A stretch of DNA of 64,000 bases from a virus, in IMG/VR virus record IMGVR_UViG_3300033146_004399, positions 96,001 to 160,000 of that record. One strand, written 5' to 3'. Numbering within the stretch: the stretch's first letter is position 1; the number at the start of each line of letters is the position of its first letter. A program made the position numbers and the translations under genes. The notes beneath the pieces are model-generated. The model ran no database searches. It worked only from the letters and a program-made list of their open reading frames with translations, and had not been told where the DNA came from. Below, piece after piece: positions 2,006 to 34,515 of the stretch.

Positions 2006-2971
2006 GTGAATATGGAGAGGAAAATATTATTTAAGGTAAAAAGTGGATCTCATATGTATGGTCTTAATACTCCCGAAAGTGATGAAGACTATATGGGTAT
2101 ATTCATGCCTACATCCGAAGATTTATTAGGTCTTAATAAATTAGAAGAAATAGATAATTCTACTAAATCATCTAAAGAAGATCGACGTAATACTAAAGAA
2201 GATGTAGATGAAAAACTTTATTCACTTAAGAAATATCTTCATCTCGCATTACAGAATAACCCTAATATAGTAGAAGTTTTATTTTCCTCTCCTGAATCAA
2301 TTATAGAAATGACTCCTGTGTTTCAGGAGTTGATAGATAATAGAGATAAAATAGTCTCACAGAAAATATATTATTCATTTACGGGATATGCATTTGCTCA
2401 AAGAAAGAAACTCATAGTTAAGAAGGAAAGATATACTTCACTTGTAGAAGGCGTTAAATTTCTAGAAACCGTGTATAAAGATAAACTTGGTAGTAAGTAT
2501 CCCATTAAAGATGAAGACGCAGATGCTTTAAACACAAGTTTAAAATATTATAAAGGAAAAAAGAATAATACTGAATCTTTCCATAGAGGTATGGATCTAG
2601 ATATGATTATAGAAAAACTCAGAGCTGAAAGAGATAGATATGGCTGGAGAGTTAATACCTCAACTTTTGAAAAATTATTTTATGATGTAAAATTTGCCTA
2701 TCATTTGATCAGATTATTAGGGCAGGGAGAACAGTTATTAGAAACTGGTAAAATTGATTTTCCAATAACTGGAAAATTAAAAGATGATATAATGCGAATA
2801 AGAAATGGTGAAGTTGAGTACGACGAATTAATGAAGATGTATGAGACTTATAATAAAAGGTGTGATGTAGCATTTGAAAATACTAAGTTGAGGAAAACTC
2901 CTGATTTCAAATGGGCTAATAAATGGTTGATTAAAATTCTTAAGGAGAGTATTATAAATGAAGAAGAGTAA
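2006..2971 (+). CDS. DNA polymerase beta-superfamily nucleotidyltransferase (RlaP-like)
   Basis: GSHMYGLNTPESDEDYMGIF (GS..DxD) motif; C-terminal YDVKFAYHLIRLL typical of this phage family. Confidence 0.8.
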   Translation: MNMERKILFKVKSGSHMYGLNTPESDEDYMGIFMPTSEDLLGLNKLEEIDNSTKSSKEDRRNTKEDVDEKLYSLKKYLHLALQNNPNIVEVLFSSPESIIEMTPVFQELIDNRDKIVSQKIYYSFTGYAFAQRKKLIVKKERYTSLVEGVKFLETVYKDKLGSKYPIKDEDADALNTSLKYYKGKKNNTESFHRGMDLDMIIEKLRAERDRYGWRVNTSTFEKLFYDVKFAYHLIRLLGQGEQLLETGKIDFPITGKLKDDIMRIRNGEVEYDELMKMYETYNKRCDVAFENTKLRKTPDFKWANKWLIKILKESIINEEE

Positions 2972-4135: not shown

Positions 4136-5170
4136 TATAGGTGGTAAAATGAATAATGTAGATAAATTAGTAAAAGAAGTTGAGGCTAATGAAAAAGCGT
4201 TGAAACATACTAAAGAAGAAGTTGCTGATGCTATTATGAAAATATATACTTCTTATATATATTCTATTAATAAACAGTTACGTACCTTCTTTGGAAGAAG
4301 AAGAAAAATAGGTAAATTTACTATTAAAAGCAAATGGATAGGCGTAAATGAATATAATGATGGGTATCCTTTAATTAAGGTGTATTACAGAAAAAGACTT
4401 ATATTAAAAGTAAGTGGTAGAGAAAATGGTAATGCTAATACTTGGAAAGATGCTAAATTTAGATTACGTCACGTTTATAAACTTGATATGTCTAAAATTG
4501 TTGAACTTCAAACATTTCACAATATTTTAATTACGTTAACCCAGGAACAATTACATATAAAAAATGAAAAAATAAATAAGTTGAATAATTTTCAATTAGC
4601 GTTAAAGGAGTTGGAAGTATGATATTTGCAGTTAAATATAGAAGAGCGCAAACAGCTGAATTAATTACAGCAGATAACTATAGAGGAAAATGGACCTTTC
4701 TTAGAGAATGGTTTCAATCTAACAAAGTAGCTAAAGATATACTGGAGGAAAAATGAGTTGGACGGATAGATGGTACAATGCTGAATATGCTAATTTAACT
4801 CCTATAGGACGAGTGGTTTTAACTCTTATAATTATAGGTTTATTTTTACTCCCTTTACTAATTTTTGGACCAATAGAAATAATTGATATGGAATCAGGAC
4901 CAGTATCAATATTCCTTGGTAATTTTATGACTGTTTTAGTAGCTACAGTAGTTGTAATAATAAGTATTGTAATTATATTTTTAATTTGGATGTTTGTGTC
5001 ATGGATTTTAACTGGTCGTTCTGGTATTAATAGTTTAAACTTTTTTTTGGTAGAGAAGCCGTGGGATTTTACAGCTACTTTATTTAGAGTATTCTTTGGC
5101 TCCTATAGAAATAAGTGGCTTTTCCTTCATGAAATATTATACCCAAATAAAATAGCAAAGGAGATGCTAG

Positions 5171-5356
5171 ATGAATAACTTAAGAGTTAAAAGTTTTATA
5201 GCTTCCTATTATCAAGACGGTTGGAAAGAAGGTGTTGAGATTCTTGATACGGAAATTAATGCATAGATGATAGAATACTCAAATATAATAGTAGATAGAA
5301 TAGAACATATTAAGTTTGAAACACATGAAATAGTTCATATTTGGTATACTATATGA
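5171..5356 (+). pseudogene. 61-codon ORF interrupted by one in-frame TAG
   Basis: MNNLRVKSF...EINA*MIEYSNIIVDRIEHIKF...WYTI; TAG at 5264-5266; its TGA overlaps the next ATG at 5353. Confidence 0.6.
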
Positions 5357-6184: not shown

Positions 6185-7102
6185 TTGAATCCTCATAAAA
6201 TTTTAGGTGTTGAACCCGGTGCTAACGCAAACGACATAAAGAAAGCTTATAAGTCTTTAGCTAAAAAATATCATCCGGACGCTAACGGTGGTGATGACAC
6301 TAAATTCAAAGAAATAAGTCATGCATATGAAATATTAACCGATCCTAAAGCTAAAGCTCAATATGAGTCAGAACAATTTAAAAAAACTGCTAATTCTTTT
6401 GGCGGAATGGGTGGTATGGATTTTGGGGATATATTTAGAAGTTTTTCTCAAGGTTCTAACGGTTTTTCTCAAGGGCCTGGCGGGTTTAGATTTACTTATG
6501 GTGATACTAAAAGGAAAATACACGGAAAAGATATCCAAGTTAGAATTTTTATCACTCTTGAAGAGGTTTTTAACGGTAAAACCATTGAAATGGAAATACA
6601 GCGTAACGAGAGAATAAATTCTGAGAAGAGAGAAGTAAGAAGCAGGAAGATAAAACTTAATATACCAAAAGGTGTTGAAAACGGAAAAGTTTTACATCTC
6701 CGTGGTGAAGGACATCAAGGATTAAATGGTGGACGAGATGGTAACGTAAATATAATAATTCAAACTAAACCACATGATTATTTCTGGAAGAAAAAAGATG
6801 GTCTTTATACTCAAGTTGAGATTTTCTTTACTCAAGCTATTCTCGGGGCAACTGTTGAATTTCTTAATTTAAATAGTGAAATAGTAGAATTGGTAATACC
6901 TCCAGGAACGCAGCCAGGAGATATAATAGAATTGAGAGGTGAAGGCGTGCCTTTTACGGGAAGTGATACTCGAGGATATCTTAAAGTTATTATAAAAGTT
7001 AAACTTCCAACTCAATTAGAATCTTACCAAAAAGAAAATTTAAGAATATTCCAGGAGCAATTCAATATAAAACCTATTGCTTCCTCAGTTAAAATAAAAT
7101 GA
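6185..7102 (+). CDS. dnaJ: Type II J-domain co-chaperone (DnaJ/CbpA-like, no central zinc finger)
   Basis: KKYHPD J-domain, G/F-rich linker, C-terminal DnaJ_C domain (IPKGVENG, IPPGTQPGD). Confidence 0.9.
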   Translation: MNPHKILGVEPGANANDIKKAYKSLAKKYHPDANGGDDTKFKEISHAYEILTDPKAKAQYESEQFKKTANSFGGMGGMDFGDIFRSFSQGSNGFSQGPGGFRFTYGDTKRKIHGKDIQVRIFITLEEVFNGKTIEMEIQRNERINSEKREVRSRKIKLNIPKGVENGKVLHLRGEGHQGLNGGRDGNVNIIIQTKPHDYFWKKKDGLYTQVEIFFTQAILGATVEFLNLNSEIVELVIPPGTQPGDIIELRGEGVPFTGSDTRGYLKVIIKVKLPTQLESYQKENLRIFQEQFNIKPIASSVKIK

Positions 7103-8299: not shown

Positions 8300-8814
8300 A
8301 TGTTATTTAAACTATATAAATATACTACTAAGGGCGGACATATATACTATGATATCCCCATATATCAAGAAGGGGATAAGTATATATATTATGAATATGA
8401 TGTTAATGGGAAGGTGTGGCTTGGGCCGCATAGTGTTTTTATTCGCAGATGGTTTGGTCCAGAGACAGATAAAGAGCCTTATACTTTTAATATCATTCCT
8501 GCAGAGGTATTAAAAGATTTAATTATGAAATTATTTAAGGAAACCTAGATGAACAAGTTATATTATGAAACAGGAAAAAATATTTATGGTGCTTGGGAAC
8601 AATATTCTTACCCTGTTTTAAAAGCTCCTAAAAGAGGTCCAAATTATGTGGTATATGTTGCGTATGATGTAGAAAAAGCTATTTGGGGCATATATGCAGG
8701 TGATGATTTAGATTACTCAGATGAAGTAGAATTTGATGATATTAAAGATGCGTTTGCAAAATCTAATTTAATTGAAAAAATATTTAGTGATGAATTTATT
8801 GAGATAATAAATAA

Positions 8815-9216
8815 ATGGCAATAAAAAAGAAAGGACTTATGGCTAAAGCAAAAAAGAAAAGGAAGAAAATAACTTTAAGACAGTATTATAAAACTAAACA
8901 CTGGTCGCAATTGAGAAATAAATATTCATACGGAGACGAGGCTGAATGTCAAGTGTGTCACAGTAGACGTTGGGAAAATTATAAGATCGGTAAGAAAAAA
9001 GGACAAAGAAAACCTAAAAGTGTAAACCATTTACATCTCCACCATAAACATTATGATACAATGATGAATGAATCGAGGGATGACTTAATGCTTCTCTGTG
9101 ACTCATGTCATAAATTTTTCCATCAATTAGAAAAAATGAGGAAAAGATCTCCAATATATGAAGAAGCTTATATAAAATTAAAAAATCAGTCAGGGTGGGA
9201 ATTCAAAAAGAGATGA
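8815..9216 (+). CDS. HNH endonuclease
   Basis: CQVC...LHLHHKHY...DLMLLCDSCH. Confidence 0.8.
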   Translation: MAIKKKGLMAKAKKKRKKITLRQYYKTKHWSQLRNKYSYGDEAECQVCHSRRWENYKIGKKKGQRKPKSVNHLHLHHKHYDTMMNESRDDLMLLCDSCHKFFHQLEKMRKRSPIYEEAYIKLKNQSGWEFKKR

Positions 9217-13398: not shown

Positions 13399-14676
13399 AT
13401 GGATGTTATAGGAAAATACGGAACAGCAATTATATATAACGATGATGTAGAACAGGAAGCTATATCGCAAGTTTATGCTCTTATGAATGATTCTATGATT
13501 GAGGGATCTACAGTTCGTATAATGCCGGATATTCATGCAGGAGCTGGTTGTGTTATTGGATACACTGCTATGCTTACAGATAAAGTTGTTCCTCAGCTCG
13601 TAGGAGTTGACATTTCGTGTGGGCTCTTGGGATTTAACTTGGGTCATAAAAAAGATATAAAGTTGAAATTTGATAAACTTGATAAATTTATTAGAAAAAA
13701 TATTCCTGCTGGTCAAACAGTAAATGATGAATTTGATGAAAATTTAATAAATAATATTTTTTCTTATATGAATGTTAAGTTTAAAACTTGGGATAAATAT
13801 AAAAAAGAATTAGAAAAAGCTTGTAATAGAACACATCAAGATTTTGATTATGTGTTACGATCATTAGGTTCCATGGGTGGAGGAAACCATTATTTAGAAC
13901 TTGGTGAAAGTAATGAAGGTGAATTGTGGATGATAGTCCATTCAGGGAGCAGAAACTTTGGTTTGAAAACAGCCCTCCACCACCAGAAGATAGCTGAAGA
14001 TCAAACTCTCACTATGTCTAAAGATGATTATGACGCTAAAGTTGAAGAGATTAGAAAGACTAAGAAAGGGAAAGGCATTGAAGTTGCTATACAGAAGTTG
14101 AGAAAACAATCTAAAGTTCGGAAGCATAAAAGAACTGGTCTTGAATACCTTGAAGGTGAAAAAGCAGAAGATTATTATAAAGATATGTATATTGCTCAAA
14201 TTTATGCAAGTTTAAGCCGTCATATTATGATTTATAAAATTGTTAAATTTTATGGGTTGAAATTTGATAAAGATAAATTGCTAGAAACAGTTCATAACTA
14301 TATAAATTTTAAGGATAGAGTATTAAGGAAAGGAGCTGTATCTGCTCATAAAGACGAGATGTTATTTATTCCTATGAATATGAAAACAGGAACGCTTTTG
14401 TGCCGAGGCAAAGGAAATGAAGCGTGGAATTGTTCCGCACCGCACGGTGCGGGTCGCAAAATATCTCGTACTAAAGCTAAAGCTTCCATAAGATTAGAAG
14501 ATTATCAAAAGGTTATGAGAGATGCTAAAGTATGGACAACATGTGTAAATAAATCAACTTTGGATGAAGCACCTGCTGCATATAAAAAACCAGAGGATAT
14601 TATTAAATACATAGAACCAACTGTTGACATTATTACTATGATAAAACCTTTGTACAATTATAAAGCAAATTCATAA
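13399..14676 (+). CDS. rtcB: RtcB RNA 3'-phosphate/5'-OH ligase
   Basis: MPDIHAG, VGVDISCG, GSMGGGNHYLE, VHSGSR, RKGA, SAPHGAGR and DEAPAAYK motifs. Confidence 0.95.
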   Translation: MDVIGKYGTAIIYNDDVEQEAISQVYALMNDSMIEGSTVRIMPDIHAGAGCVIGYTAMLTDKVVPQLVGVDISCGLLGFNLGHKKDIKLKFDKLDKFIRKNIPAGQTVNDEFDENLINNIFSYMNVKFKTWDKYKKELEKACNRTHQDFDYVLRSLGSMGGGNHYLELGESNEGELWMIVHSGSRNFGLKTALHHQKIAEDQTLTMSKDDYDAKVEEIRKTKKGKGIEVAIQKLRKQSKVRKHKRTGLEYLEGEKAEDYYKDMYIAQIYASLSRHIMIYKIVKFYGLKFDKDKLLETVHNYINFKDRVLRKGAVSAHKDEMLFIPMNMKTGTLLCRGKGNEAWNCSAPHGAGRKISRTKAKASIRLEDYQKVMRDAKVWTTCVNKSTLDEAPAAYKKPEDIIKYIEPTVDIITMIKPLYNYKANS

Positions 14677-16814: not shown

Positions 16815-17615
16815 AGGATGTAAATTTTATTCTTTAGAAAAGAAGAAAATTAGATTAAATGCAAAATTTATAGAAGAAGAATTGACTGAATATACTTTTA
16901 AGGTATGTAGTGCTTTTTATCCTCCCATATATATTAATGGAAATTCATCAGAATGTAATTTCTATAAAGAAAAAAAGACGAGGAAAAATATTAATAGTAA
17001 AAGCTAGGATGTTATTATTATGAATATAATTGAATGTATTATAGATATGATGTTAAACAATTGGTATATAAAAATTGATAAATACAATAGAATTAATGCT
17101 ATTAAATTATTAGATAAAACTATATATTATGAAGACAGTTTAGAGTTTTATACTATTATTTTTTATGAAAGTGATAATTTTAAAGATTTTAAAGACGGCT
17201 ATTATAGTATGAAAAAAATAAAAGATATATTAAAATATATCCCAATAAGTGAAGCTAATTTGAATGAAAAAGTGTTAATAACATTTGCTAAAGAATTATT
17301 AAGTGAAACCTAAAATATTATTGTGAAAGTGAGAAAAAAGAAATGAATGAAGGAAATTATCAAGGTGTAAAGCTACCACCAACTACGCCAAAACCACCTA
17401 TTATAGTTAGAGGCAGAAAAACGGATACATATAAACAAGCTTTTATTGATGGTCTTATTTGTTATGCGTGGTGGAAGGACGGCGTTCAATATGTAGGAAT
17501 GGCAGGAACTACTTTAAAGGAAGCTATAAAAGAAGTAGAAGCATCATGGAATTATCATGGGTAAACAAAGATTTTACAGAAGTTTTATGATTAAGAAGCA
17601 TAGTTATGTTTATAT

Positions 17616-17687
17616 GTTGTTATGGTCTAATGGTATGATGCGGGATTCTAAATCCTTGCGGTTTGGGTTCGATTCCCAATAACGACA
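17616..17687 (+). tRNA. tRNA with CUA anticodon (amber suppressor-like); CCA not encoded
   Basis: 7-bp acceptor GTTGTTA/TAACGAC plus A73; D-loop AATGGTA; anticodon arm CGGGA-TTCTAAA-TCCTT (CTA 17648-17650, top pair mismatched); T-arm TTGGG-TTCGATT-CCCAA; 72 nt. Confidence 0.8.
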
Positions 17688-19079
17688 ATATGATTACTAG
17701 AGAAATTATAGAATTAACAAGGGAGTGGCTTGGGGATGAAGGTATAACTGCATTTACTAAGATAGTGTTAGGAAGTGATTTAATTTACTTCCATTTTACA
17801 GCAGGTATGGACGTGAGAAATTTCCTTAGAGATACTACTTTATGTAAAAATTGGAACCCTCATGACTTTGATAATAACTGGCAAAAAATAATAATGAAAG
17901 CGATAGCAGAAGATTATACAGAAGAGGAGCTTATTAATGATAGAGATAGCTAGAGAATGGTATAAGAAACACACACGTCATATTGATGACTTGATGACTT
18001 CAAGAATGGAAGCATTGTATCTTAGACAAATCGATAAGGTTGGGTTTGAACCTCCTGAAGAGGATATGAAAAACCCTGAACGTTGGAAAGGTGATCATTG
18101 GCTGTGGTTTTCTAAAGAATACGGAATGGAGTAATGGAAATTATAAGACGGCAAAATTTTAATCTTGAATTTTATGAAATTCAAGATGGAATTAATACTC
18201 TCCGTATAGGACTTGCTGGTTTTAGAAAAGGCGAACCAGGCGCTTCAATGTTCTATCCTGAAAGTGGCGATGATTATATATTGGTCATTTATGATAATGG
18301 TTGGTATAAATTTCATATTAATGAGTTTACACATGAAGCAGGTTTAGAATATATCTCTGAAAAATTACATTGCTCCCTAGGTGATGCTAAAATTATTCGT
18401 GCTTTCATCAATGATTTATTTGAGCAAGATTCTCTTCTCCCACTTCTAACTGATGGAGCCACAGATTTCCATCTTAAAAATCCATATTTAATGAGGTAAT
18501 AATGTCTACACCAAATTTTCCTAAATTATGTATTGATGAGGATATTTCTATATTATCAAATCAAAAAAAAGACAAAATTGTTGATATTAGAGAACAACTT
18601 TGGCTGGAAGAACAACGGCAAAAGCCTGAAATAAGTAAAGAACAGATTCTTAGAAATAGAGAATACGAGCTAGATAGGAGAATTGAAAAAATACAAAAAG
18701 ATAAAGAAAGTTTTATAGAAAAATTTATTATATTATATTATTATTATTTGAAATTGAAAAATATAGATAAATATAAAGGCTTTTATAAAATTAAACTGGG
18801 TTCTTACATTATGAAAAAATATATAGTTTTCGGAAATGCGGAAAACTCAAACCATAGATTGGTAATATATAATAATAATAAGAAAATACTATTTAAAATA
18901 AAAGATAAATGGTATAATTTGTTTGATAATTTTGAAATAATAAAATTTGAATCTGAAGCAATATTTGAATTAGAGGAATTTTACAATTTACTTATTGATG
19001 TGATAAACGAAGAATTAAGAAAGAAGGAAGAAATACTAGATAATATAGATTTAACTAATATATCTTTAAAGGAGTTAAT

Positions 19080-20935: not shown

Positions 20936-21565
20936 ATGAACAGATATAAATATCCACGAACATTTCATCTCACATTTTCTCCAGGTAAAACATCAGATGA
21001 TAAAACCATCTCTGATATGTCTGCCTTTGAAGGTGAAAGGGTGGTAATAACAGAGAAAATGGATGGCGAATCATGTACTATTTATTCTGATGGTTTTACA
21101 CATGCTCGTTCCATAGATAGTAAATTTCATCCTTCAAGATCATGGGTTAAAAGTTTAGCATCTTCTTTGGATTTTACTGGTATAGGCGAAGACATTAGAC
21201 TTTGTGGCGAAAATATGTATGCTAAACATTCCATCCATTATAAAAATTTAAAGTCTTATTTCTACCTCTTTGGTGTCTGGACTGATAATGTATGTCAGCC
21301 ATGGGAAATTACTAAACAAATAGCTGATGTATTAAGTGTTGAGTTGGTGCCAGTTCTGTATGAAGGAATATATGACCCGTTATTTCTTGCAGCTCTTCCG
21401 TCATCTCTAAGAGATGACCAGGAAGGTTTTGTAATAAGAAGAACCGGAATAATAACTCTTAAAGATTGGCCTACTCATGTAGCTAAATGGGTTAGACCAA
21501 ACCACGTACAAACAGATAAACATTGGATGTATCAGGAAATGATAAAAAACATACTAAGAAGTTAA
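20936..21565 (+). CDS. ATP-dependent RNA ligase family protein
   Basis: KYPRTFHL, SPG..DDK, TEKMDGE (KxDG), LCGENMY, EGFVIR and KWVR motifs. Confidence 0.85.
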   Translation: MNRYKYPRTFHLTFSPGKTSDDKTISDMSAFEGERVVITEKMDGESCTIYSDGFTHARSIDSKFHPSRSWVKSLASSLDFTGIGEDIRLCGENMYAKHSIHYKNLKSYFYLFGVWTDNVCQPWEITKQIADVLSVELVPVLYEGIYDPLFLAALPSSLRDDQEGFVIRRTGIITLKDWPTHVAKWVRPNHVQTDKHWMYQEMIKNILRS

Positions 21566-27168: not shown

Positions 27169-27575
27169 TTATGCTATTCTTCCTATAGCTGTTGCTGTAT
27201 AATATGAAGTCCCGGTGCTTGTTGCATAACCAGAAAATGAAATTGATGTACCGGTCGTAAAATTACTTGCCGCACTATTATGATAACCAAGTTCACTTGT
27301 TCCTTCCATAAAATACCATGAAACACCGACAGATCCCGCAACAAAAGCTTTCGGAAAAGTCCAAGTACCAACTCGAGTTGAATTTGCAGCTGTACCGTTC
27401 ATAGCTGTTCTTGCTTTATAATATATTAATGTCCCATCTGAAAATTCTGTCTATCCTCCATTTAAATTGGAACCGGATGATATAATTCCCCAGCTTTTTT
27501 CCAAGCGCCCCGTGTTGAGTTATAATAGTATTCGTTATAAATGTCATCATCTGAAGGAGATGTTGGAAATACCAT
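27169..27575 (-). pseudogene. FPTSP-anchored fibre-tip gene with a frameshift in a G4 run and an in-frame TAG
   Basis: MVFPTSPSDDDIYNEYYYN..GAWKKAG, shift at 27488-27491, GIISSGSNLNGG*TEFSDGTLI..WTFPKAF..AIGR; TAG at 27451-27453. Confidence 0.7.
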
Positions 27576-32142: not shown

Positions 32143-33252
32143 AAATAATACTGCTTCCGTAAATGCCGTGAACTGCTGGAAAGTCCTTAGAGCTTAAATA
32201 ACTACAACGTAATCAGTAATGATAAGCGTGAATGTTAAAAATATTTAAGATTGGGCAATCAGCATCCAAGCTGCCTAGAAATAGGTAGAAGGTTCAACGA
32301 CTAGGTTATGGAGTCCTAACGTAAAGACGAGGACGGTAAAAACCCACGAGTGCGGCAAATTTTAATTTTGTTTATAATATACGATCTTTGACATAATGAC
32401 TAAAGATAAATATATGAAATATTATATTTATAAAACAGTTAATTTATTAAATAATAGATATTATTTTGGCTGTCATGCTACGGATAATTTGAATGACAAT
32501 TATTTAGGTTCTGGTAAAATTTTAAAGCGTGCCATTAAAAAATATGGTAAAAATTGTTTTAAAAAAGAAATAATTGAATTTTGTGATTCTATGACAGATA
32601 TGTTTCTAAAAGAAGAAAAATTGATAACTATTGATGTTGTTAATGATCCTATAACATATAATTGTTGTTTAGGTGGTAGAGGTGGATATAGAAATATAAG
32701 TGATATTGGCAAAAAATCAATTTCTAATGCTAGAAAAAATAAAGTTGTAATAAAAGAAAATGATGATACGTATAAAGTAATAGATAAAGAATTATTTGAT
32801 AAGAAAAAAATGCATGGCGCCACATATGGTAAAACAACAGCTAGAACAATATCTGGTAAATATATCGTTGTTACAAATGATGAATTTACTAATAATAGTG
32901 AATTAGTTGGTACTACTAAAGGTAAAACAGTAGTTAAAGATATTACTGGTAAAATAAGTGTAGTTGATGTAAATGATTATAGAATTAAAACTGGTGAATT
33001 GGTTGGAATAACAAAATATTCAAAACAAACACCTGAATCTAATTTAAAAAGAAGTTTAACATTAACTGGATATGTAAGAGGCAAACAAAAAATTGTTCGA
33101 TGCCCACATTGTAATAAAACCGGTGGAATATCTAATATGAAAAGATGGCATTTTGATAACTGTAAATATAAACAAAATTAAAATTAAGATATAGTCTGAA
33201 CTGTATTGAAAGATACAGAGGTTAAGATAAAGAACTTAACGATAACATATTG
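32143..33252 (+). mobile_element. Group I intron (1110 nt) in dnaK
   Basis: Exon ends in U and intron ends in G; P3 TGCCGT 32164-32169 / GCGGCA 32352-32357; P4 TGCTG/CAGCA; P7 GACTA 32299-32303 / TAGTC 33192-33196 with AAGATATAGTC S element; splicing restores DLGGGTFD. Confidence 0.92.
32396..33181 (+). CDS. Intron-encoded GIY-YIG homing endonuclease (alternative start at ATG 32414)
   Basis: YYIYKTVN..NNRYYFG.H...YLGSG..LKRAIKKYG..F.KEI; C-terminal CPHC; lies between P3' and the S element (P8 position). Confidence 0.85.
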   Translation: MTKDKYMKYYIYKTVNLLNNRYYFGCHATDNLNDNYLGSGKILKRAIKKYGKNCFKKEIIEFCDSMTDMFLKEEKLITIDVVNDPITYNCCLGGRGGYRNISDIGKKSISNARKNKVVIKENDDTYKVIDKELFDKKKMHGATYGKTTARTISGKYIVVTNDEFTNNSELVGTTKGKTVVKDITGKISVVDVNDYRIKTGELVGITKYSKQTPESNLKRSLTLTGYVRGKQKIVRCPHCNKTGGISNMKRWHFDNCKYKQN

Positions 33253-34515
33253 GGTACATTCGATATATCTATTCTAGAACTTGGAGACGGGGTATTTGAA
33301 GTTAAAGCTACAAATGGTGATACCCATCTTGGTGGTGATAATTTTGATCAAAGAATAATTGATTGGTTGATTGACGGTTTCAAAAAAGATTATGCTATTG
33401 ACTTATCACAGGATAAGATGGCTTTGCAACGGTTAAAAGAAGGAGCTGAAAAAGCTAAGGTTGAATTGTCAACAGCACAAGCTACAAATATCAATCTTCC
33501 ATTTATAACAGCTGATTCATCAGGGCCTAAGCATCTTCAGGTAGATTTAACACGTGCTAAGTTTGAACAGTTGGTTGATGACCTTGTACAAAGGACTAAA
33601 CAACCATGTCTTAATGCGATTAAAGACTCTGGTTTTAAAGTAGAAGATATCGATGAAGTTATTTTAGTTGGAGGTTCGACTCGTATTCCAGCGGTTCAGG
33701 AAATAGTAAAAGAAATTTTTAAGAAAGAACCTAACAAAAGTGTTAACCCGGATGAAGTAGTTGCTCTCGGAGCTGCTATTCAGGGAGGTGTATTATCGGG
33801 TGGTGTTAATGACATCCTCTTACTTGATGTTACTCCCCTTTCTTTGGGTATTGAAACTTTGGGTGGTGTAATGACTAAGTTAATTGATAGAAATACCACT
33901 ATTCCAACTAAAAAAAGTCAAACATTTTCGACAGCAGTTGATAACCAACCTGCTGTGTCAATCCATGTCCTTCAAGGTGAAAGAAAGGTTGTTAGTCAGA
34001 ATAGAACATTAGGTAATTTTGATTTAACAGATATACCTCCAGCTCCTAGAGGAGTACCACAAATTGAAGTTAGTTTTGATATTGATGCTAATGGTATAGT
34101 ACACGTGTCTGCAAAAGATCTTGGAACAGGAAAGGAGCAAAAAATAAAAATTGAATCTTCATCCGGTCTTTCAGATGCTGAAATAAATAAAATGGTTAAT
34201 GACGCTGAAGCTAATGCTGAAGCAGATGAATTAATAGTAGAAAAGATTCAAGTTAAGAATGACGCTGATAATCTTATTTATTCAACAGAGAAAACTTTGA
34301 AGGATTTCGGGGATAAAATTGCGGAAGAAGATAGAATAAATGTTGAAACTGCAATATCGGATCTAAGAGCTTCCTTAGACGGAGAGTTGGATGAACTTAA
34401 AATAAAATTTGAAGCGTTACAGCAAGTCGCACATAAAATTGCAGAAGCTGTATACACTGAAACTAATGATGCTACTGAGTCCGAGGATTCAGATTATGAA
34501 GTAGTTGACGAATAA
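33253..34515 (+). CDS. dnaK: DnaK (Hsp70) exon 2; spliced product 616 aa
   Basis: [37 protein letters not shown] and PRGVPQIEV. Confidence 0.95.

What the first reader, a model, noticed from the sequence alone, without database searches (positions are those of the whole stretch)
17616..17687. Amber-suppressor-like tRNA(CUA) in a region that still uses TAG as stop
Seen: a complete cloverleaf with a CTA anticodon. Its anticodon arm GGA-TTCTAAA-TCC resembles Gln(CUG) arms, but G1-C72 and A73 are not Gln-like, so the charged amino acid is uncertain. TAG still ends genes here (3975, 8548, 15609, 17007, 17953) and long genes have no internal TAG. Established: some large phages recode TAG or carry suppressor tRNAs. 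Inference: conditional readthrough of a few genes (5171, 27169, the 8548 junction), recoding elsewhere in the genome, or an early stage of code change. The next ATG (17690) starts 3 nt after the discriminator, so tRNA processing would also cut that mRNA.
Basis: partly seen in the sequence, partly recalled or inferred. Interest (0 to 1): 0.8.

Follow-up and report, generated by a model that had tools for sequence, protein, structure and literature searches.

The report
Amber-suppressor tRNA in a standard-code phage
A large T4-like phage that otherwise uses the normal genetic code carries one genuine tRNA that reads the UAG stop codon, as two of its relatives do; this is a known kind of oddity, and its only homology-backed possible target here is a damaged tail-tip gene with UAG in place of a conserved tyrosine.

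Summary
Window 17616-17687 (+) is a canonical tRNA with anticodon CUA (ARAGORN; Rfam 54.7 bits). It is the only tRNA in the 179-kb record, an IMG/VR fragment about 63% complete. It is not tRNA-Pyl.

The phage is not recoded. TAG ends 13 of 93 long ORFs, reading TAG as sense adds almost no coding, and no release factor or relevant synthetase gene was found.

Two relatives, G001 (388 kb, 98% complete) and G002 (189 kb), also use the standard code and each carry one tRNA(CUA). The state therefore looks stable, not a code change in progress.

The nearest annotated phage tRNAs are tRNA-Trp(CCA). The charged amino acid cannot be assigned.

- The 27169 tail-tip gene has TAG at a site that is Tyr, Phe or Trp in 79 of 79 homologues, but it also needs a one-base frame correction, so it may be a pseudogene.
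- ORF 5171 is coding-like on both sides of its TAG but has no homologues.
- The 8548 junction has no support.

In G002, TAG replaces a conserved Gln in an endonuclease-like gene.

Best reading: a host-charged, partial suppressor that lets occasional in-frame UAGs be read. This scan has flagged phage tRNA(CUA) many times on other DNA; the "amber-gated Pth2" pattern noted there is absent here.

The parts
17616..17687 (+). tRNA with anticodon CUA (amber suppressor): class I, G1-C72, U3.G70, A73, no encoded CCA
17343..17564 (+). upstream 73-aa ORF, ending 51 nt before the tRNA; it has a homologue in relative G001 (58% over 52 aa) with no tRNA next to it there
17690..17953 (+). downstream 87-aa ORFan; its ATG lies 3 nt after the discriminator and it ends in TAG
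27169..27574 (-). tail-tip gene, one of five paralogues with an FPTSP N-terminus. It is broken twice: a frame change at a GGGG run near 27490, and an in-frame TAG
27451..27453 (-). in-frame TAG at a position that is Tyr (71), Phe (4) or Trp (4) in 79 phage homologues
5171..5353 (+). small ORF with a good ribosome-binding site: 31 codons, TAG (5264-5266), then 29 codons. Both halves are coding-like in one frame; no homologues, so unverified
8546..8548 (+). TAG followed directly by an in-frame ATG, joining ORFs 8300-8548 and 8549-8824; no evidence of a fused form
13399..14676 (+). RtcB RNA ligase (context). With RlaP (2006-2971) and an RNA ligase (20936-21565) it forms an RNA-repair neighbourhood around the tRNA

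Best explanation
The locus encodes a functional amber (UAG) suppressor tRNA of a large T4-like phage that keeps the standard genetic code.

Shown:
- The gene is a canonical elongator tRNA with anticodon CUA.
- The phage and two relatives still end 12-17% of their genes with TAG.
- Each relative also keeps one tRNA(CUA).
- No release factor or matching synthetase gene was found in this phage or in G001.

Inferred:
- The tRNA is transcribed with its neighbours, cut out by host RNase P and 3' processing, given CCA, and charged by a host synthetase. Gln is the most likely amino acid by analogy with Trp-derived CUA suppressors; Lys, Tyr or Trp are possible.
- It then competes with host RF1 and gives partial read-through of UAG.
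- The effect is not a change of code. It is tolerance of, or conditional expression of, the few genes that carry an in-frame UAG. Two examples are the tail-tip gene at 27169-27574, where UAG stands for a conserved Tyr, and an endonuclease-like gene in relative G002, where UAG stands for a conserved Gln.
- The cost is short C-terminal extensions on TAG-terminated genes.
For: - The tRNA is real and canonical.
- Standard code: TAG ends 13 of 93 ORFs of 200 aa or more, and reading TAG as sense raises coding cover only from 0.85 to 0.88.
- Relatives found through the major capsid protein (53-62% identity) each have one tRNA(CUA), at the edge of arrays of 58 and 35 tRNAs. Both use the standard code.
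- The G000 and G001 tRNAs share an identical 17-nt T-arm, the D-loop, G1-C72, U3.G70 and A73. Five of the seven acceptor pairs differ by compensating changes on both sides.
- No RF1/RF2 or Glu/Gln, Tyr/Trp, Lys or Pyl-type synthetase domain was found in G000 or G001.
- TAG inside conserved domains: the tail tip, where 79 of 79 homologues are aromatic and phrog_2712 spans the TAG; and the G002 paralogue, with TAG at the Q of TEWQNM-Q-LNGWDRIWDCGN.
- A36-A37-A38 suits decoding of U-starting codons (read from the sequence; established knowledge of MiaA substrates).
Against: - There is no expression or charging data.
- The tail-tip gene also has a frame break, so its TAG may be one of two lesions in a dead gene.
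- The G002 case is near the C-terminus of a multi-copy selfish-type gene and could be a recent nonsense mutation.
- TAG-terminated genes show no excess of backup stops. TAG stops are not conserved between orthologues, 0 of 45 pairs. So nothing in the genome shows adaptation to suppression.
- In-frame junctions after TAG are not significantly more frequent than after TAA (3 of 30 against 10 of 181).
- About 37% of the genome is missing.
Confidence: 0.5

Rival explanations
1. Dedicated switch: the tRNA exists to unlock one or a few specific UAG-containing genes late in infection. Candidates are the alternative tail tip 27169, the small ORF 5171, or a gene in the missing third of the genome.
For: - The TAG in the tail tip sits at an invariant aromatic site of a conserved domain.
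- ORF 5171 has a good ribosome-binding site and coding-like halves on both sides of its TAG.
- Earlier notes of this scan describe such gated partners in other phages.
Against: - No gene with an early in-frame TAG was found in G000.
- Pth2, the partner reported elsewhere, is absent from G000 and carries no TAG in G001 or G002.
- No TAG-containing gene is shared by the three phages.
- The tail tip also needs a frame correction.
- ORF 5171 has no homologues.
Confidence: 0.2
2. Evolutionary intermediate: an early or abandoned step towards reassigning TAG (code 15), as proposed for standard-code relatives of recoded gut phages.
For: - The genome is low in GC (30%) and TAA is the preferred stop.
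- A suppressor tRNA is present.
- Borges et al. propose this order of events (bioRxiv 10.1101/2021.08.26.457843).
Against: - TAG is not depleted as a stop: 14% here, 12% and 17% in the relatives.
- Structural genes, including a 2304-codon fibre gene, have no in-frame TAG.
- The same state in three phages with only 53-62% capsid identity argues for a stable condition.
- There is no release factor or synthetase 'code-change module'.
Confidence: 0.1
3. Not a working suppressor: either a neutral, anticodon-mutated leftover of a tRNA array, or a tRNA-shaped RNA used for something else, such as a decoy for a host anticodon nuclease or a processing signal in the operon.
For: - The relatives carry large tRNA arrays from which such a copy could derive.
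- The tRNA sits among RNA-repair genes: RtcB, RlaP and an RNA ligase.
- No target is proven.
Against: - All canonical tRNA positions are intact and the Rfam score is high.
- CUA is kept in G000 and G001 despite many compensated stem changes.
- It is the only tRNA retained in 179 kb.
- A CUA tRNA cannot replace a cleaved sense-codon tRNA.
Confidence: 0.15

Closest known systems
Suppressor tRNA(CUA) of TAG-recoded ('code 15') phages: crAss-like, Lak and others (Borges et al., bioRxiv 10.1101/2021.08.26.457843; Peters et al., PMC9523058)
   Same: A phage-encoded tRNA with anticodon CUA in a low-GC phage, presumably charged by a host synthetase.
   Different: Those phages carry many in-frame TAGs, above all in structural and lysis genes, and some encode RF2 or a synthetase. 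Here TAG is an ordinary stop, late genes have no TAG, and there is no release factor or synthetase.
E. coli su7 (supU): tRNA-Trp with CCA changed to CUA, which reads UAG and is charged largely with Gln (from my own knowledge of the classical suppressor literature; not checked in a paper here)
   Same: The anticodon arm equals that of a phage tRNA-Trp(CCA) except for position 35, and the D-arm resembles that of the S-PM2 tRNA-Trp.
   Different: The discriminator is A73 and the first pair is G1-C72. Bacterial and phage tRNA-Trp, including G001's own copy, have G73. Whole-sequence comparison does not single out Trp.
Suppressor tRNAs noted in standard-code cultured phages, for example tRNA-Sup in Klebsiella jumbo phage phiKp24 (PMC8386662)
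   Same: A lone stop-reading tRNA in a large standard-code phage, with no known target.
   Different: That one has a different anticodon (TTA). Here the feature is kept across a clade, and a candidate UAG site is identified by homology.
'Amber-gated partner gene' cassettes described in earlier notes of this scan: tRNA(CUA) beside a small gene, often Pth2-like, with UAG at codon 3-6
   Same: tRNA(CUA) in a standard-code phage.
   Different: No neighbouring gene has an early UAG. Pth2 is absent from this record and has no UAG in the relatives.

Membership tests
Canonical elongator tRNA (Rfam RF00005) | Cloverleaf that scores above the family's gathering threshold over the full model | tested here: met
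   54.7 bits against a threshold of 29, model positions 1-71; ARAGORN cloverleaf
Canonical elongator tRNA (Rfam RF00005) | Conserved tertiary nucleotides: U8, A14, G18G19, U33, G53-T54-Psi55-C56, A58, C61 | tested here: met
   All present when read from the alignment and the sequence
Amber suppressor tRNA | Anticodon C34-U35-A36 in a 7-nt loop with U33 and a purine at 37 | tested here: met
   Loop UUCUAAA
Amber suppressor tRNA | Aminoacylation and UAG read-through in vivo | not testable with these tools
   Needs tRNA-seq, an acid gel, a reporter assay or proteomics
tRNA-Pyl | Unusual structure: 6-bp anticodon stem, 3-nt variable loop, short D-loop without G18G19, and one base between the acceptor and D stems | tested here: not met
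   5-bp anticodon stem, 5-nt variable loop, 7-nt D-loop with GG, and U8 G9 present
tRNA-Pyl | A partner PylRS gene | tested here: not met
   No PF01409-type synthetase domain in G000, G001 or G002. G000 is only about 63% complete.
TAG-recoded (code 15) phage | Many genes, especially late ones, with in-frame TAG, and a clear gain in coding density when TAG is read as sense | tested here: not met
   Coding cover rises only from 0.849 to 0.879, less than for TGA or TAA read as sense. No in-frame TAG in long genes. The same holds in G001 and G002.
TAG-recoded (code 15) phage | TAG abandoned as a terminator | tested here: not met
   TAG ends 13 of 93 long ORFs, and 108 of 756 across the three genomes
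Amber-gated gene plus suppressor tRNA cassette (earlier notes of this scan) | A conserved neighbouring gene with UAG within its first few codons, often Pth2-like | tested here: not met
   No such ORF. PF01981 is absent from G000, and is present without TAG in G001 and G002.
Trp-derived (su7-type) amber suppressor | A tRNA-Trp body with only C35 changed to U | tested here: inconclusive
   The anticodon arm is identical to phiPsa374 tRNA-Trp apart from position 35, and all annotated blastn hits are tRNA-Trp. Against this, it has A73 instead of G73, and a nearest-neighbour comparison with 231 phage tRNAs does not discriminate.

The most novel reading that the evidence does not exclude
The suppressor tRNA and the UAG at the invariant tyrosine of one of five interchangeable tail-tip genes, together with the nearby frame shift, form a deliberate low-yield switch. 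Only a small fraction of virions would then carry this alternative receptor-binding tip, a form of host-range bet-hedging driven by a phage tRNA.
Probability: 0.07. Interest if true: 0.75.

Novelty: new member of a known kind. Interest (0 to 1): 0.35.

Why it matters
Phage-encoded stop-reading tRNAs are usually taken as a mark of a changed genetic code. This case adds to the evidence that they also persist, across a whole clade of large T4-like phages, in genomes that keep UAG as an ordinary stop. What they are for then remains open.

The value of this locus is practical. It offers a defined tRNA, with a Trp-like body and A73, and two homology-anchored UAG sites (Tyr in a tail tip, Gln in a relative's endonuclease-like gene). 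On these, read-through and the inserted amino acid could be measured. For genome annotation, the message is that a tRNA(CUA) alone should not trigger code-15 gene calling.

Tried and rejected
1. Recoding. I compared coding cover under code 11 with each stop read as sense, in G000, G001 and G002. There is no signal for TAG.
2. Programmed read-through at gene ends. Extension lengths, backup stops and the +4 base after TAG do not differ from those after TAA or TGA. No TAG stop is conserved between orthologues.
3. An early-TAG 'gated' gene. All candidates in G000, inspected by eye, are explained by a nearby real start or by another frame.
4. The Pth2 partner is not present or not gated.
5. Fused homologues were sought for 5171-5353 and for 8300-8824. 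None were found.
6. Close relatives carrying the same tRNA were sought in several ways:
   - exact patterns in viral contigs, which found only G001;
   - a metagenome pattern, which gave 18 unrelated tRNA(CUA) loci;
   - genome contigs, which gave nothing useful and no hint of the host.
7. RtcB-anchored loci are not syntenic with this region.
8. Amino-acid identity by nearest neighbours among 231 phage tRNAs is not discriminating.
9. A control count of TGA or TAA interruptions with spanning homologues was dominated by off-frame conservation. I did not use it.
10. No Rfam ribozyme or other RNA family lies next to the tRNA.
The genomic contexts of the RtcB homologues and of the intact tail-tip homologue P0122 could therefore not be fetched.

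Full report
**Observation.** ARAGORN finds exactly one tRNA in the window, at 17615-17688 (+), with anticodon CTA. Rfam's tRNA model matches 17616-17687 end to end at 54.7 bits, against a threshold of 29.

Read, the cloverleaf is fully canonical:
- a 7-bp acceptor stem (G1-C72, U2-A71, U3.G70, G4-C69, U5-A68, U6-A67, A7-U66) with discriminator A73;
- U8, A14 and G18G19 in a 7-nt D-loop;
- anticodon loop UUCUAAA and a 5-nt variable loop;
- T-loop UUCGAUU and no encoded CCA.

U(-1) can pair with A73, which is why ARAGORN draws eight pairs. Thermodynamic folding alone is unremarkable (z = -1.2), as is usual for tRNAs.

**What genome this is.** The window is bases 96001-160000 of a single 179,366-bp IMG/VR record with 30% GC. 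The record has no terminal repeat and is rated about 63% complete. It encodes a T4-type major capsid protein. Around the tRNA lie RlaP, DnaJ, RtcB, a GIY-YIG endonuclease, an RNA ligase and a DnaK-like protein. The tRNA(CUA) is the only tRNA in the 179 kb. The immediate neighbours are ORFans.

**The code is standard.**
- TAG ends 13 of 93 ORFs of 200 aa or more.
- Reading TAG as sense raises cover by ORFs of 100 codons or more only from 0.849 to 0.879. That is less than for TGA or TAA read as sense.
- After TAG stops, the distance to the next in-frame stop is no different from that after TAA or TGA. Long coding-like in-frame extensions are not significantly commoner (3 of 30 against 10 of 181 for TAA).
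- No release-factor domain was found in this phage or in G001; G002 has only a short RF-1-domain protein. None of the three genomes has a Glu/Gln, Tyr/Trp, Lys/Asp/Asn or Phe/Pyl-type synthetase domain.

**Relatives.** The capsid protein retrieves 30 IMG/VR loci. Two lie on large records:
- G001 is 388 kb, 98% complete, with 62% capsid identity. It shares many genes with this phage at 45-65% identity.
- G002 is 189 kb, 79% complete, with 53% capsid identity.

They carry 58 and 35 tRNAs respectively. Each array ends with one tRNA(CUA) set a few kilobases apart from the rest. Both genomes use the standard code, with TAG ending 12% and 17% of long ORFs.

The tRNAs of this phage and G001 share an identical 17-nt T-arm, the D-loop, G1-C72, U3.G70 and A73. 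Five acceptor pairs and three anticodon-stem pairs differ by compensating changes. That is what a conserved, working tRNA would look like. G002's copy has a different scaffold.

Across the three genomes TAG stops show no excess of backup stops. They are never conserved as TAG between orthologues, 0 of 45 pairs. A suppressor beside ordinary TAG stops is therefore a stable condition in this clade, not a visible transition.

**Identity.** It is not tRNA-Pyl: the structure is canonical and there is no PylRS-type gene.

In a collection of 50,697 phage records, the only matches are tRNAs annotated tRNA-Trp(CCA), from the Pseudomonas phiPsa374 group and from S-PM2. The anticodon arm is identical to that of phiPsa374 tRNA-Trp except for C35 to U, and the D-arm resembles that of S-PM2.

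G001's tRNA-Gln(CUG) also has A73, so A73 is not in itself un-Gln-like in this clade. However, the clade's normal tRNA-Trp has G73. A nearest-neighbour comparison with 231 phage tRNAs does not discriminate.

By analogy with the classical Trp-derived CUA suppressor, which is charged mainly with Gln (my own knowledge), Gln is my first guess. U35 with A73 also suits Lys or Tyr recognition in E. coli-type systems. The amino acid remains open.

**Search for targets.** No gene in this record has an in-frame TAG in its first codons. The Pth2 gene reported as the gated partner in other phages (notes seen) is absent here. It carries no TAG in G001 or G002, and in G005 it is interrupted by a frameshift, not a TAG. 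An all-against-all search for homology spanning a TAG gave mostly off-frame artefacts. Two real cases remain.

1. *G002 endonuclease-like gene.* A roughly 650-codon endonuclease-like paralogue in G002 has TAG where four of five homologues have Gln and the fifth has Asp, inside the motif TEWQNM-Q-LNGWDRIWDCGN. The 18 codons after the TAG are conserved.
2. *Tail-tip gene 27169-27574 (-) in this window.*
   - A phmmer search of 1.84 billion representatives gives 23 hits, and many of the alignments start upstream of the TAG.
   - In an alignment, and in 79 IMG/VR homologues, the TAG position is Tyr 71 times (TAT 43, TAC 28), Phe 4 times and Trp 4 times. It lies in the motif SGSNxNGxY-xK[FY]xDGT.
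   - PHROG phrog_2712 (tail fiber protein) spans the TAG.
   - However, an intact 131-aa homologue (P0122, 59% identical) aligns with residues 1-31 in one frame and 26-131 in the -1 frame. The junction is at a GGGG run about 13 codons before the TAG (paralogues).
   - The gene therefore has two lesions. It may be a pseudogene, or a TAG-containing gene with an indel that is either a true variant or an assembly error.

*ORF 5171-5353.* This ORF has a good ribosome-binding site. It runs for 31 codons, then TAG, then 29 codons. Both halves score like coding sequence in one frame: 20.7 and 12.7 bits, where only 0.07% of off-frame windows reach 12.7. It has no homologues.

*Other junctions.* The junctions at 8546, 17005 and 24610 are adjacent same-frame genes, each with its own start. 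No family or homologue spans the TAG at any of them, and a direct homologue search was run only for 8546.

**Interpretation.** The best-supported reading is a host-charged, partial amber suppressor that this clade keeps while retaining the standard code. It allows occasional in-frame UAGs to be read through. In an AT-rich genome these arise readily from CAG, TGG or TAY codons. It may also give low-level expression of a few such genes.

Shown: the tRNA, the standard code, the clade-wide presence, and the two homology-anchored UAG sites.

Inferred: expression, charging, read-through, and any benefit.

Rival readings are a dedicated switch, a code-change intermediate, and an inert relic or decoy. 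They are weighed in their own sections of this report. The missing 37% of the genome limits every negative statement.

**Novelty.** Suppressor tRNAs in standard-code phages are already noted in the literature (PMC8386662). This scan has flagged them on DNA from several hundred other genomes. This is a new member of a known kind, of moderate to low interest. It has one feature worth testing: the UAG at an invariant tyrosine of a tail-tip gene.

Noticed in passing
window 27169-27574 (-): One of five paralogous tail-tip genes is broken twice within about 40 nt. There is a frame change at a GGGG run, and a TAG at a Tyr that is conserved (Tyr, Phe or Trp) in 79 of 79 homologues. An intact 131-aa homologue (P0122) exists elsewhere.
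   Followed up: yes
window 5171-5353 (+): A 61-codon ORF with a strong ribosome-binding site overlaps the end of gene 4753-5178. A TAG at codon 32 splits it, and both halves have coding-like codon usage. No homologues were found in any database searched.
   Followed up: partly
L143:3075-3262 (-), that is G001 about 293075-293262: Directly downstream of G001's tRNA(CUA) lies a non-coding stretch of about 190 nt. It is richer in GC (43% against 30%) and ends in a tRNA-like T-arm and acceptor strand. ARAGORN (with introns allowed, and for tmRNA) and Rfam do not recognise it.
   Followed up: partly
G002 minus strand, endonuclease-like ORF of 648 codons (near the low-coordinate end of the record): TAG replaces the conserved Gln of the C-terminal motif TEWQNMQLNGWDRIWDCGN in one of several paralogues. 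Two paralogues in this phage have Gln there.
   Followed up: yes
window 2006-2971, 13399-14676, 20936-21565 (+): Three RNA-repair genes lie within 20 kb around the lone tRNA: RlaP (PF10127), RtcB and an RNA ligase (PF09414). DnaJ (6185-7102) and a DnaK-like gene (33250-34515) are also nearby.
   Followed up: partly
L175, L177, L184, L187 (metagenome contigs): Several unrelated contigs carry two different tRNA(CUA) genes in tandem, with different scaffolds: one with D-loop TAATGGTA, the other with a longer D-loop.
   Followed up: no
L196 (G005, about 18118-18491, -): The Pth2-like gene of this related phage fragment is split by a frameshift. The Pfam match falls in two pieces in different frames.
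   Followed up: no
G001 about 351060-353193: Inside the tRNA array lies a duplicated segment (87-98% identical copies about 1.8 kb apart) that carries an endonuclease-like ORF. Next to it is a 155-nt tRNA match, which suggests an intron-containing tRNA.
   Followed up: no
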